Shown here one piece after another: positions 64 through 5,997 of a DNA stretch of 64,000 nt. Where the stretch lies: the IMG/VR virus record IMGVR_UViG_3300040801_000524, positions 1 through 64,000 of that record; one strand, given 5' to 3'. Position 1 is the stretch's first letter. Every line of letters begins with the position of its first letter. This DNA comes from a virus. The notes beneath the pieces were generated by a model. It was not told the origin of the DNA, made no database searches, and worked only from the letters and a program-made list of their open reading frames with translations. A program made the translations under genes and the position numbers.

Positions 64-204
64 ATGAAGTACGTGAACAAATTTCTGGATTGGTACCTGA
101 TCAACGAAGAAGGTGAAGGGACCATCGGTATGGCCAACGGCTTCCGGCTGTGGCTTTTGGTGATGGTACCGCTTCTGATTGCCGGATACGCAATCTGGGG
201 TTGA
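64..204 (+). CDS. small hypothetical membrane protein (46 aa)
   Basis: GGGGAG SD then ATG64..TGA204; MKYVNKFLDWYL...LWLLVMVPLLIAGYAIWG with a hydrophobic C-terminus; below the ORF-track cutoff. Confidence 0.6.
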   Translation: MKYVNKFLDWYLINEEGEGTIGMANGFRLWLLVMVPLLIAGYAIWG

Positions 205-230
205 CAAACCGATACCAAGGATGGTAGCAT
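201..230 (+). promoter_or_regulatory. sigma70-like promoter upstream of the tmRNA
   Basis: TTGACA(201-206)-18 nt-TAGCAT(225-230). Confidence 0.55.
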
Positions 231-236
231 ACATAC

Positions 237-615
237 AACGGTGCAGAAATGCCGGTGCCCCACGAAGTGGGTCCCGATGTTGGATCGAATTGCGGTGAGA
301 TTCCGTTAGTAGTACCCAACATACCAATTATGGTGGTATGAAGCTGACGATAGCTTTTCTGGACGGGAGTTCGAATCTCCCCGTCTCCACCAAGAACGCT
401 TTGAGATGCACCGGACTACTTGGGGGTGTGCATACCCCAAGGACAAAGGCCCTTTAGGTGGGCCGTCCGCTTAGAGTGTTCTTGATGGGGACGACACAGG
501 CATTCGACAGGGAAAGGACAATAGGTTGACCACTCGGTGAAGCAAGAGACCGTAACTCTCACGAACTAAAGTAATCGCAAACGATGACTTTTACGGGGTA
601 GCCTTGGCTGCATAA
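237..615 (+). ncRNA. ssrA: circularly permuted (two-piece) tmRNA
   Basis: Acceptor piece ends GGACGGGAGTTCGAATCTCCCCGTCTCCACCA (361-392). Coding piece starts GGGGACG...ATTCGAC at 487. The two form a 7-bp acceptor stem with G3.U70. Tag ORF 577-615 reads ANDDFYGVALAA*. Outer boundaries are approximate. Confidence 0.9.
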
Positions 616-625
616 CCCGCATTGA

Positions 626-670
626 ACGTGCCCTTTGGGCCTGTTGGTTCGATTCCAACCACATCCACCA
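626..670 (+). pseudogene. 3' half of a tRNA-like element (variable arm, T arm, ACCA) without a matching 5' half
   Basis: GCCCTTTGGGC hairpin, GTTGG-TTCGATT-CCAAC T arm, CACATCC-ACCA end; no GGATGTG partner upstream. Confidence 0.55.
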
Positions 671-710: not shown

Positions 711-1058
711 ATGCATCATAGACGTGCCCGACAAGTGGCATTGAAGTTGATGAATTTATATCTTGGTCCGTCATGGAAATTTGAGTTCTTTCAAGAAGAT
801 ACGCACTATGCCGACTGTGATGTCGAGAAGTACGTGATAAGGCTTTCAAAGCCAATGTTGGAAGGCGAAACTGAAGACCACGTGCGTGACACGATCCTAC
901 ATGAGATCGCACACGCATTGGCACCACACGATGACGAAAACGAACATTCGCATCGTTGGAAGCGCATTGCTACAGACATCGGGGCACTCCCAGTGTCGCA
1001 CAAGTACAGTAGCAAGACGCACCCGTTCTCATGGAGACGCAAATCCATGGAAGTTTAA
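711..1058 (+). CDS. SprT-like zinc metalloprotease
   Basis: IRLS...TILHEIAHAL...H...WKRIA..IGA pattern (HExxH). Confidence 0.8.
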   Translation: MHHRRARQVALKLMNLYLGPSWKFEFFQEDTHYADCDVEKYVIRLSKPMLEGETEDHVRDTILHEIAHALAPHDDENEHSHRWKRIATDIGALPVSHKYSSKTHPFSWRRKSMEV

Positions 1059-1702: not shown

Positions 1703-1802
1703 GGAAGGGTTAGCCGAAAGATTCTGGGTAGCGGCAACTGTCTTGAAAACAGTCGGTCCACGTGAGTGGATGTCGGGGTTCGAATCCACCGTCCTTCCGC
1801 CA
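1703..1802 (+). tRNA. tRNA-Ser(UGA) with enlarged D-loop
   Basis: GGAAGGG/TCCTTCC acceptor, ACTGT-CT TGA AA-ACAGT, long variable arm, GCCA end. Confidence 0.85.
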
Positions 1803-1937
1803 ATTTAGGGTCGAGGAATTCCGGTAATGGGTTTTGGCATGCTCGCCCACGGGTGGAGTGGATAAAAACAGTAGCCAAATCAAAGAACAGTGTTCGCCAA
1901 CCCGACATGAATCAAACGATTCAATTTCAGAAAAATG

Positions 1938-4220: not shown

Positions 4221-4571
4221 ATGAGTCTGGAAGATTGGTTCGAAGATGTACCACAAGAAGGTCCCGTGGTCGATAAGAATGCCATCAAGGCCCTGATCAA
4301 GCGCAGACGCCTTCAGATGGTGTATCACAGCTACATATACTACAGACTTGACAACAACATCGTTTCAGACGATACTTGGCAGAAATGGGCAGATGAATTG
4401 ACGCATCTGCAACAGGAACACCCTGATTGCTGCAAGATCAACTGCTACGACAAAGAATTTGAAGGTTGGGATGGTGCGACAGGCATGCATCTCCCGGCCA
4501 CGGGGCATGAACGAATGAAGGCCGAGTACCTTGTTGAGATTGCCCAAAAGTACAATGCATCGGTGGTGTAA
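4221..4571 (+). CDS. stand-alone NAD-dependent DNA ligase domain Ia-like protein
   Basis: YHSYIYYRLDNNIVSDDTWQKWADEL..LQQEHP matches the LigA N-terminal motif HxYxYYxxDxPxxSDxxYDxLxxELxxLExxHP; no adenylation domain. Confidence 0.7.
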   Translation: MSLEDWFEDVPQEGPVVDKNAIKALIKRRRLQMVYHSYIYYRLDNNIVSDDTWQKWADELTHLQQEHPDCCKINCYDKEFEGWDGATGMHLPATGHERMKAEYLVEIAQKYNASVV

Positions 4572-5225: not shown

Positions 5226-5468
5226 ATGATCGGTGACTTCCAACACTTCATCGTGTTCTGGCACGATGGTTCAAATTATCCGGACAGCATCGTTGGTCTG
5301 GATCACATGGCACACGTTGGTGACATCTTCGATGCCCTGACACACTTCACATCGACCGTGGCCCCTTCATTGGGTCTCAAGAACGAAGAATGCCGCATGG
5401 TCCAGATGGATCGTAATACGGTACTCAAAATGTGGTTCGGGGGTGAAGAGAATGTATCTGGAAATTAG
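5226..5468 (+). CDS. hypothetical protein
   Basis: AGGAG SD, ATG5226. Confidence 0.7.
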   Translation: MIGDFQHFIVFWHDGSNYPDSIVGLDHMAHVGDIFDALTHFTSTVAPSLGLKNEECRMVQMDRNTVLKMWFGGEENVSGN

Positions 5469-5997
5469 CCCCCGACAATCCGGCAAGACCAAGCGGATGA
5501 TCGATGCCATTCTGGCCCACGTGTCGGCCGGAAATGTGGCATACGTCCAGACTCACAGCGAACACTACTTTCGGGACATGTTGAACTCCCGACTGAAGCC
5601 GAAGTTGCACATGACGGCCAAACACAAGAACATCGTGTTCCTTCGTGATGAAGACCATTTCACTCAACTGAGACGTGGTATGGTTCACTTCGAAGACCGG
5701 CCACGGGTGTTTGCCGATGAAGTTGATTTCGTTGGGGATCGGTTGGTTCTCAACCCACAAGGGTACTACTGTGGTACCCCTAAATATCAGCGAACACAGA
5801 AAGACATCGTTCTCTGGATGATGGGTGAACGGGTTGACAAGTTGCTGGATGCCATCGAAATGAATGGTGGAAAGCACGAATCATATTCTCCGTTCAACAT
5901 GTTCATGAACCGGACTATTGCCGACATCAAGTCGATGCGGATGTGTATGTCCAAAGAACAGTACCAGAACGAAGTCTTCGGATCGATTTACGGGTAG
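5452..5997 (+). CDS. small terminase-like P-loop ATPase (ATPase domain only)
   Basis: PRQSGKT Walker A, VFADE Walker B, CGTP motif, C-terminal EQYQNEVFG resembling the terminase FxQEY segment. Confidence 0.65.
   Translation: MYLEISPRQSGKTKRMIDAILAHVSAGNVAYVQTHSEHYFRDMLNSRLKPKLHMTAKHKNIVFLRDEDHFTQLRRGMVHFEDRPRVFADEVDFVGDRLVLNPQGYYCGTPKYQRTQKDIVLWMMGERVDKLLDAIEMNGGKHESYSPFNMFMNRTIADIKSMRMCMSKEQYQNEVFGSIYG

What the first reader, a model, noticed from the sequence alone, without database searches (positions are those of the whole stretch)
237..615. Phage-encoded circularly permuted two-piece tmRNA
Seen in the sequence: the tRNA-like 3' end (T arm plus CCA, 361-392) lies upstream of the 5' end (GGGGACG at 487). 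The two make a 7-bp acceptor stem with the G3.U70 alanine identity pair. CTTTTCT (354-360) pairs with AGGGAAAG after ATTCGAC. The 94-nt intervening segment is closed by a long stem (AAGAACGCTTTGAG / CTTAGAGTGTTCTT). The tag is ANDDFYGVALAA. Established: permuted ssrA occurs in alphaproteobacteria and some cyanobacterial and betaproteobacterial lineages, and a C-terminal LAA is the ClpXP degron. Inference: the phage supplies its own ribosome-rescue RNA, possibly to counter host tRNA/tmRNA-cleaving defences, and this may be an independent permutation event.
Basis: partly seen in the sequence, partly recalled or inferred. Interest (0 to 1): 0.8.

Follow-up and report, generated by a model that had tools for sequence, protein, structure and literature searches.

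The report
Two-piece tmRNA gene in T4-like phage
This uncultured T4-like phage carries an intact-looking gene for the ribosome-rescue RNA (tmRNA) written in swapped "two-piece" order; such genes are already known in many phages, so this is an ordinary new example.

Summary
ARAGORN calls a permuted tmRNA with the tag ANDDFYGVALAA. Rfam tmRNA_permuted scores 100.6 bits against a cut-off of 47. The acceptor stem, G3.U70 pair, T arm, P2, PK1 and the stem that closes the spacer all hold, most with compensatory changes in relatives.

The gene lies in a T4-like phage contig, behind a sigma-70-like promoter and ahead of a tRNA cluster.

It is not new in kind. ARAGORN also calls a permuted tmRNA in 11 of 80 related IMG/VR loci. 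Cultured Stenotrophomonas Menderavirus phages have one annotated. A 2022 paper counted 53 two-piece forms among 133 unique phage tmRNAs. This scan has also noted such genes in many other phage genomes.

The "independent permutation" idea is not supported. The gene groups with L006 and Menderavirus (97/97 support), next to betaproteobacterial two-piece tmRNAs. A counter-defence role remains untested.

An extra finding concerns the odd T arm plus CCA at 643-670. It is the 3' part of a tRNA-Tyr left by a deletion of about 1.4 kb that starts 11 bases after the tag stop. Near-identical strains in other metagenomes still have the missing DNA.

The parts
201..230 (+). Putative sigma-70-type early promoter: TTGACA, 18-nt spacer, TG-TAGCAT. 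The start site would fall near 237.
   Evidence: 10 of 12 consensus matches with an extended -10 TG. This is a consensus match only. An RNA?-labelled wastewater contig of a ~91% relative also has TTGACA just upstream (loose end at 213).
237..331 (+). 5' leader of the precursor. No function assigned.
   Evidence: Fold z-score is only -1.5. It is not covered by the tmRNA_permuted model.
332..392 (+). Acceptor piece: P2 3' strands (332-336, 355-357, 359-361), GGAC, T arm 365-381, acceptor 3' strand 382-388, A389, CCA 390-392.
393..486 (+). Intervening segment (94 nt), presumably cut out. It has a 13-bp closing stem 393-405/470-482, an inner 5-bp stem and two hairpins. It holds no gene.
   Evidence: Fold -43.7 kcal/mol, z -4.2. 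The closing stem is kept with compensatory changes in window, L006, L044, L023 and Bhz51. A strain in run X1 lacks 19 nt at 441, so the interior is not constrained.
487..626 (+). Coding piece: acceptor 5' strand 487-493, UUCGAC 503-508, P2 5' strands 508-534, PK1 (P3 535-538/549-552; P4 545-548/556-559), resume codon GCA 577, tag frame 577-612, stop 613-615, 11-nt tail.
   Evidence: P4 covaries: GAG/CUC in the window, CUG/CAG in Bhz51, CGA/UCG and AGA/UCU in the two bacterial beta-type genes.
627..670 (+). Relic of a tRNA-Tyr(GTA): end of the anticodon stem, variable-arm hairpin, T arm 643-659, acceptor 3' strand 660-666, ACCA. It is fused to the tmRNA tail by a deletion with junction 626|627. 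It is not part of the tmRNA.
   Evidence: contigs of runs X5 and X6 are identical up to 626 and then differ. An X6 contig enters 627 from ...AGCGGTCTGTAAAAC. An X1 contig has 1446 nt between 626 and 644; among the tRNAs of related phage loci, the best match to the relic is tRNA-Tyr of L006/L007.

Best explanation
This is a probably functional two-piece (circularly permuted) tmRNA gene of the betaproteobacterial type. It was inherited within a clade of T4-like phages.

Inferred steps:
1. Host RNA polymerase transcribes it early, from the sigma-70-like promoter at 201-230, as one precursor.
2. Host RNase P cuts at 486|487. The 3' end is trimmed to CCA392 and the stem-closed 94-nt spacer is discarded.
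3. The acceptor piece (~332-392) and the coding piece (487 to at least 626) stay together through the 7-bp acceptor stem and the P2 helices.
4. Host AlaRS charges the RNA through G3.U70, and host SmpB delivers it to stalled ribosomes.
5. Translation resumes at GCA 577 and adds (A)ANDDFYGVALAA, a ClpXP-type degron.

The likely benefit is to keep ribosomes free during infection, when many messages are cut. These may include the phage's own mRNAs that run into tRNA genes.

Shown here: gene order, all helices, the tag, family membership and phylogenetic placement. Inferred: transcription, processing, charging, tagging and the benefit.
For: - ARAGORN tmRNA*.
- RF04321 at 100.6 bits against a cut-off of 47.
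- Every helix is paired, and P1, T, P2, P4 and the spacer stem covary.
- The tRNA-like domain carries the conserved GGAC and UUCGAC.
- The tag ends in ALAA, and UAAUC precedes the resume codon.
- Positions 214-626 are identical in an activated-sludge contig of run X5. A microbial-mat strain (X1) has only 2 substitutions in 1-626, both at 34 and 37 and so outside the gene, plus a 19-nt spacer deletion.
- Relatives: L006/L007, Menderavirus, L044, L023 and others.
- Tree placement.
- Promoter match.
- ORF stops lie inside tRNA-Trp and tRNA-Ser(GGA).
Against: - No expression or processing data. No run on record as RNA holds the stretch, and only contigs were available.
- Scores on the lineage-specific models are weak: beta_tmRNA 62.2 against a cut-off of 84, and alpha_tmRNA 55.5 against 50 over only part of the model. 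Ordinary one-piece tmRNAs reach up to 47.6 bits on the beta model.
- The deletion at 626|627 removed whatever followed the tag in sister strains. The 3' end of the coding piece is therefore abnormal here and might impair stability.
- No SmpB gene in the 73.7-kb record, which is about 41% of the genome.
- The host is unknown.
Confidence: 0.82

Rival explanations
1. The gene is a decaying passenger. It was captured from a bacterium, is no longer used, and in this strain is already damaged by the deletion behind the tag.
For: The deletion junction lies 11 nt after the stop codon. The score is below the beta_tmRNA cut-off. No expression data.
Against: All functional elements are intact. Compensatory changes across a phage clade show selection on the structure. 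The gene is identical or nearly so in strains from different sample types, while neighbouring DNA at 644-1214 differs by about 6%. In E. coli the pseudoknots after the tag are dispensable (general knowledge, not tested here).
Confidence: 0.08
2. The permuted order arose independently in this phage lineage. That would make it a fourth origin beside the alpha, beta and cyano lineages.
For: The lineage-specific Rfam scores are low. The spacer is long.
Against: The P2 and PK1 sequence is shared with bacterial beta-type genes. For example, TTCGACAGGGAAAG and the CGGT...ACCGTAA segment match G070. The tree puts the phage clade sister to the beta genes at 85/88. Menderavirus relatives pass the beta_tmRNA cut-off at 92-95 bits. 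A spacer-closing stem is also visible in beta_G070.
Confidence: 0.04
3. The phage tmRNA is a counter-defence or takeover device. It would replace host tmRNA destroyed by a defence nuclease, or compete with it so that tagging follows the phage's needs.
For: None specific. Phage tRNA clusters are known to replace cleaved host tRNAs (general knowledge). PMC11915505 cites a report that a tag-less tmRNA-like RNA of phage DS6A inhibits E. coli tmRNA.
Against: The tag is a canonical degron with an AAND..Y...ALAA layout, so it does not re-route proteins. No defence-related neighbours were seen. This reading is compatible with, and not exclusive of, plain ribosome rescue.
Confidence: 0.06

Closest known systems
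Permuted tmRNA of Stenotrophomonas Menderavirus phages (Bhz51 OR797040 ssrA 67979-68352; Marzo MZ326868; Moby, Mendera, IME-SM1, Yut2/3)
   Same: - T4-like myophage, with the large terminase about 50% identical.
- The permuted tmRNA lies inside the tRNA cluster.
- The tag is alike: ANDDSYTVRIAA against ANDDFYGVALAA.
- The spacer has the same closing stem.
- 64% identity outside the spacer, in the same tree clade at 97/97.
   Different: - Menderavirus passes the beta_tmRNA cut-off (92-95 bits); the window does not (62).
- Its spacer is shorter.
- Its tag ends in IAA.
- It is followed by an intact tRNA-Thr, whereas the window has a truncated tRNA-Tyr after a deletion.
Betaproteobacterial two-piece tmRNA (Rfam RF01850; Sharkady and Williams 2004)
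   Same: Same gene order and break point, same P2 and PK1 layout, partly the same sequence, and ANDE/ANDD-type tags (ANDERFALAA, ANDENFALAA).
   Different: - The window scores below the family cut-off.
- Its spacer is 94 nt, against a few tens of nt in the two bacterial genes aligned.
- Its tag is 2 residues longer.
- The 3' hairpins of the family model are missing, because the DNA after 626 is deleted.
Two-piece tmRNAs of marine T4-like phages (OM43 phage Melnitz, pelagimyophages; Buchholz et al. 2022, PMC9004378)
   Same: A phage-borne permuted ssrA in T4-like myophages. The same idea that the phage supports the translation machinery it has taken over. The phage's tmRNA type need not match the host's.
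   Different: Those are of the alphaproteobacterial type, as are L023, L052, L059, L062, L072 and L080 here. Melnitz carries a glutamine riboswitch; Rfam found none in the window.

Membership tests
Permuted (two-piece) tmRNA, Rfam RF04321 | Covariance-model score at or above the curated cut-off (47 bits) | tested here: met
   100.6 bits, E 2e-18, model positions 1-213 of 213.
Permuted (two-piece) tmRNA, Rfam RF04321 | T arm, acceptor 3' strand and CCA lie upstream of the acceptor 5' strand, separated by a spacer | tested here: met
   365-392 lies upstream of 487-493, with a 94-nt spacer. ARAGORN flags the gene as tmRNA*.
Permuted (two-piece) tmRNA, Rfam RF04321 | 7-bp acceptor stem with G3.U70 (alanine identity) | tested here: met
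   G489.T386. The pair is invariant in all 11 phage sequences, while pairs 5 and 6 covary.
Permuted (two-piece) tmRNA, Rfam RF04321 | P2 helices that hold the two pieces together | tested here: met
   359-361/508-510 and 355-357/512-514 are paired with compensatory changes. The distal 332-336/530-534 is paired in the window, L006 and beta_G030.
Permuted (two-piece) tmRNA, Rfam RF04321 | Tag reading frame that begins with an Ala codon, ends in a hydrophobic AA-type degron and has a stop codon | tested here: met
   GCA 577 ... GCT GCA TAA 615, reading ANDDFYGVALAA.
Permuted (two-piece) tmRNA, Rfam RF04321 | Processing into two RNAs, alanylation and trans-translation activity | not testable with these tools
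   No run on record as RNA holds the stretch, and the runs laid were contigs only.
beta_tmRNA, Rfam RF01850 | Score at or above the cut-off (84 bits) | tested here: not met
   62.2 bits over model positions 1-331. One-piece tmRNAs of Burkholderiales reach up to 47.6 bits, and true members reach 169-251. The long spacer and the deleted 3' region cost score.
beta_tmRNA, Rfam RF01850 | Common descent with bacterial beta-type genes | tested here: met
   The tree puts the clade of window, L006 and Bhz51 (97/97) sister to two beta genes (85/88). The alpha genes fall on the other side. Only two references per lineage were used.
alpha_tmRNA, Rfam RF01849 | Score at or above the cut-off (50 bits) over the whole model | tested here: inconclusive
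   55.5 bits, but only model positions 40-281 of 355. The tree places it away from the alpha genes.
cyano_tmRNA, Rfam RF01851 | Score at or above the cut-off (70 bits) | tested here: not met
   23.5 bits, covering the tRNA-like core only.

The most novel reading that the evidence does not exclude
T4-like phages of wastewater and soil bacteria (window, L006/L007, Menderavirus) may carry their own long-lived, phage-specific branch of beta-type two-piece tmRNA. On this reading the enlarged, stem-closed spacer is more than waste: it could be a processing platform or a third stable RNA. The rescue RNA would be kept because the phage's own tightly packed tRNA/ORF operons produce stop-less messages when the tRNAs are cut out.
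Probability: 0.12. Interest if true: 0.5.

Novelty: new member of a known kind. Interest (0 to 1): 0.2.

Why it matters
It adds one more example, from activated-sludge and microbial-mat metagenomes, to a known class: phages that bring their own ribosome-rescue RNA.

Three points are modestly useful:
- It links an uncultured phage, IMG/VR loci L006/L007 and the cultured Menderavirus phages into one clade of beta-type two-piece tmRNAs. Menderavirus would therefore be a tractable laboratory model for asking why phages keep tmRNA.
- It shows that lineage-specific Rfam cut-offs miss such phage genes, while RF04321 finds them.
- Strain comparison shows the tRNA/tmRNA region being reshaped by deletion within a phage population.

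Tried and rejected
- **Search for the undeleted variant.** Exact-pattern scans found nothing: the tRNA relic and the X5/X6 loose-end sequence in IMG/VR, the tag region in JGI metagenomes, and the SprT-like neighbour in metagenomes by protein. The 1446-nt stretch present in sister strains could therefore not be read.
- **Bacterial look-alikes.** The exact T arm plus acceptor gave no hit in genome contigs. A degenerate pattern mostly pulled tRNA-Ala and one-piece tmRNA genes. Its loci served only to obtain genome handles.
- **RNA evidence.** No RNA holder is listed. Four runs were laid as contigs only, so ends, strand and expression cannot be read.
- **A second, one-piece tmRNA.** I considered that GGGTGTG 424-430 in the spacer pairs with CACATCC 660-666, including a G.U at position 3, to make a one-piece tmRNA spanning 424-670. 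I rejected this: 627-670 is a tRNA-Tyr relic, and a 7-mer match of this kind is expected by chance about once in 20 such regions (my estimate).
- **5' leader and 3' region.** The leader 237-331 and the region 560-710 are not unusually structured (z -1.5 and -1.45).
- **A gene in the spacer.** Other phages have one, according to earlier notes of this scan. Here there is only a 22-codon ATG frame at 406-474, with no ribosome-binding site, and the 19-nt deletion in the X1 strain breaks it.
- **SmpB.** Not found in the 73.7-kb record, which is incomplete.
- **Papers.** PMC516066 (Sharkady and Williams 2004) is not held. The supplements of PMC11915505 do not break phage tmRNAs down by form.

Full report
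**Observation**

The region was read directly. The tRNA-like 3' half comes first:
- GGAC 361-364;
- T stem GGGAG 365-369 / CTCCC 377-381 with loop TTCGAAT;
- acceptor 3' strand CGTCTCC 382-388;
- A389 and CCA 390-392.

The 5' strand GGGGACG follows at 487-493. It gives seven pairs, with G489.T386 as the G3.U70 alanine identity pair. The spacer 393-486 is 94 nt. The tag frame runs from GCA 577 to TAA 613-615 and reads ANDDFYGVALAA.

ARAGORN reports a permuted tmRNA (tmRNA*) at 300-706 with that tag. Rfam's tmRNA_permuted model matches 332-615 over its full length at 100.6 bits, against a cut-off of 47, with E 2e-18. This is far beyond chance.

**Structure tested on relatives**

I anchored on the phage's gp32 gene and fetched 80 related IMG/VR loci. 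ARAGORN finds a permuted tmRNA in 11 of them.

On an alignment of 11 phage genes (A2):
- The named structure is paired in 81% of cells, against 64% in column shuffles and 42-51% when the partners are slid.
- No shuffle out of 500 reaches the observed value on any measure.
- The acceptor stem and T arm are paired in every sequence, with compensatory changes. G3.U70 never varies.
- The spacer-closing stem is kept through compensatory changes in the window, L006, L044, L023 and Menderavirus Bhz51.
- The second helix of pseudoknot PK1 covaries: GAG/CUC in the window, CUG/CAG in Bhz51, CGA/UCG and AGA/UCU in two bacterial genes.

One detail of the finding needs correction. That register fails in L006, Bhz51 and one bacterial gene. 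The Rfam register holds and covaries: 359-361 with 508-510, and 355-357 with 512-514, leaving U358 and G511 unpaired.

**What carries it**

The window is an IMG/VR virus record of 73.7 kb, estimated 41% complete. It has T4-type gp32 and a large terminase. The terminase is about 50% identical to those of Stenotrophomonas Menderavirus phages, a Variovorax phage and cyanomyophages.

A sigma-70-like promoter lies just upstream: TTGACA, 18 nt, TG-TAGCAT at 201-230, 10 of 12 matches. Seven tRNA genes follow. No SmpB gene is in the record.

Contigs laid from four runs place near-identical DNA in three sample types: microbial mat (1-626, 2 substitutions), activated sludge (214-626 identical) and, at about 91% identity, wastewater.

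**Is it new?**

No.
- Menderavirus records annotate the homologous gene as tmRNA/ssrA. ARAGORN and Rfam show that it is permuted, with the tag (VA)ANDDSYTVRIAA, RF04321 at 118-119 bits and beta_tmRNA at 92-95 bits.
- Buchholz et al. 2022 (PMC9004378) describe a two-piece tmRNA in phage Melnitz. They counted 53 two-piece forms among 133 unique tmRNAs in 18,146 phage genomes.
- The 2025 tmRNA database paper (PMC11915505) lists 79 phage sequences and introduced RF04321.
- Earlier notes of this scan also report many phage two-piece tmRNAs on other DNA.

**Which lineage?**

The lineage-specific models are equivocal:

| Rfam model | Bits | Cut-off | Coverage |
|---|---|---|---|
| beta_tmRNA | 62.2 | 84 | model 1-331 of 331 |
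| alpha_tmRNA | 55.5 | 50 | model 40-281 of 355 |
| cyano_tmRNA | 23.5 | 70 | tRNA-like core only |

As a control, one-piece tmRNAs of Burkholderiales reach up to 47.6 bits on the beta model, and true members reach 169-251.

I therefore aligned the window with 9 phage genes, two alphaproteobacterial genes (a Caulobacter and a Pelagibacterales genome) and two betaproteobacterial genes (G030 and G070). This is alignment A3.
- The window shares long stretches with beta gene G070: TTTTCTGGACG, CCGTCTCCACCAA, TTGATGGGGACG, TTCGACAGGGAAAG and the PK1 segment.
- Outside the spacer, it is most like Bhz51 (64%), L006 (59%) and G070 (58%), against 45-49% for the alpha genes and the alpha-type phage genes.
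- A maximum-likelihood tree puts the window with L006 and Bhz51 (97/97), sister to the two beta genes (85/88). The alpha genes and the other phage genes fall on the other side.

The reference set is small, but nothing calls for a separate permutation event. Most of the other gp32-anchored phage genes are alpha-type by Rfam. T4-like phages therefore carry at least two bacterial types.

**The extra T arm and CCA at 643-670**

This is not part of the tmRNA.
- Contigs of runs X5 and X6 are identical to the window up to 626 and then continue differently.
- An X6 contig enters position 627 from ...AGCGGTCTGTAAAAC. Together with 627-629, this forms an anticodon arm with loop CUGUAAA, which is tRNA-Tyr(GTA).
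- An X1 contig of 14.5 kb has 1446 nt between 626 and 644.
- Among all tRNAs of the related phage loci, the best match to 627-670 is tRNA-Tyr of L006/L007. That gene lies 1.8 kb downstream of their tmRNA.

So the window carries a deletion of about 1.4 kb. It fuses the tmRNA tail, 11 nt after the stop codon, to the 3' part of tRNA-Tyr. Whether this harms the coding piece is unknown. I could not check whether the junction is real or an assembly artefact, because no laid contig bridges it.

The same X1 strain lacks 19 nt inside the spacer. This fits a discarded spacer. The only ATG frame in the spacer (22 codons, no ribosome-binding site) is broken by that deletion.

**Mechanism and rivals**

The most likely reading, at about 0.8, is an ordinary working two-piece tmRNA. 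It would use host RNase P, AlaRS, SmpB and ClpXP, and it would be expressed early to keep ribosomes available. With the alanine carried by the RNA, the full tag would be AANDDFYGVALAA. This keeps the AAND..Y and ALAA parts of the E. coli tag (my comparison from general knowledge).

A possible specific need comes from the gene layout. The stops of ORFs 4221-4571 and 5443-5997 lie inside tRNA-Trp and tRNA-Ser(GGA). Cutting out those tRNAs would leave stop-less messages. That consequence is inference.

The rivals have little or no support: a decaying passenger, an independent permutation, and a counter-defence device. No RNA data were available.

**Verdict**

The main interpretation is right. The claims of novelty and of independent origin are not supported. 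It is a new member of a known kind.

Noticed in passing
window 626-670: Deletion junction 626|627. Positions 627-670 are the 3' part of a tRNA-Tyr(GTA). Sister strains in other metagenomes keep about 1.4 kb here, including the 5' part of the tRNA. That DNA probably also holds other tRNA genes, as in L006, which has four tRNAs between its tmRNA and its tRNA-Tyr.
   Followed up: yes
window 1703-1803: A tRNA-Ser(TGA)-like gene missed by ARAGORN and by Rfam at its gathering score. Features: acceptor GGAAGGG/TCCTTCC, anticodon loop CTTGAAA, a long variable arm, and a G-A mismatch in the T stem. It is 86% identical to the tRNA-Ser region of KVP40-like Vibrio phages. The HNH endonuclease ORF 1253-1702 ends exactly at its 5' end.
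   Followed up: partly
window 711-1058: A 115-aa SprT-like zinc-metalloprotease-family protein (Pfam PF10263, 45 bits) lies directly behind the tmRNA. Its stop codon abuts tRNA-Asp at 1059.
   Followed up: partly
window 4557-4571 and 5993-5997: Two ORFs (4221-4571 and 5443-5997) end 15 and 5 nt inside tRNA-Trp and tRNA-Ser(GGA). RNase P processing would remove their stop codons and so create tmRNA substrates. The coordinates are confirmed; the consequence is inference.
   Followed up: partly
window 441-459: A strain in a microbial-mat metagenome (run X1) lacks these 19 nt inside the tmRNA spacer, which destroys the second spacer hairpin. Apart from this, that strain differs from the window at only two positions within 1-626.
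   Followed up: yes
L002 1255-1572 (phage Marzo): ARAGORN also reports a second, non-permuted 'tmRNA' (tag APDLGSDASA) that overlaps tRNA-Pro and tRNA-Leu. It is probably a false call. Several Menderavirus records annotate a tRNA-Leu that overlaps the start of the real tmRNA.
   Followed up: no
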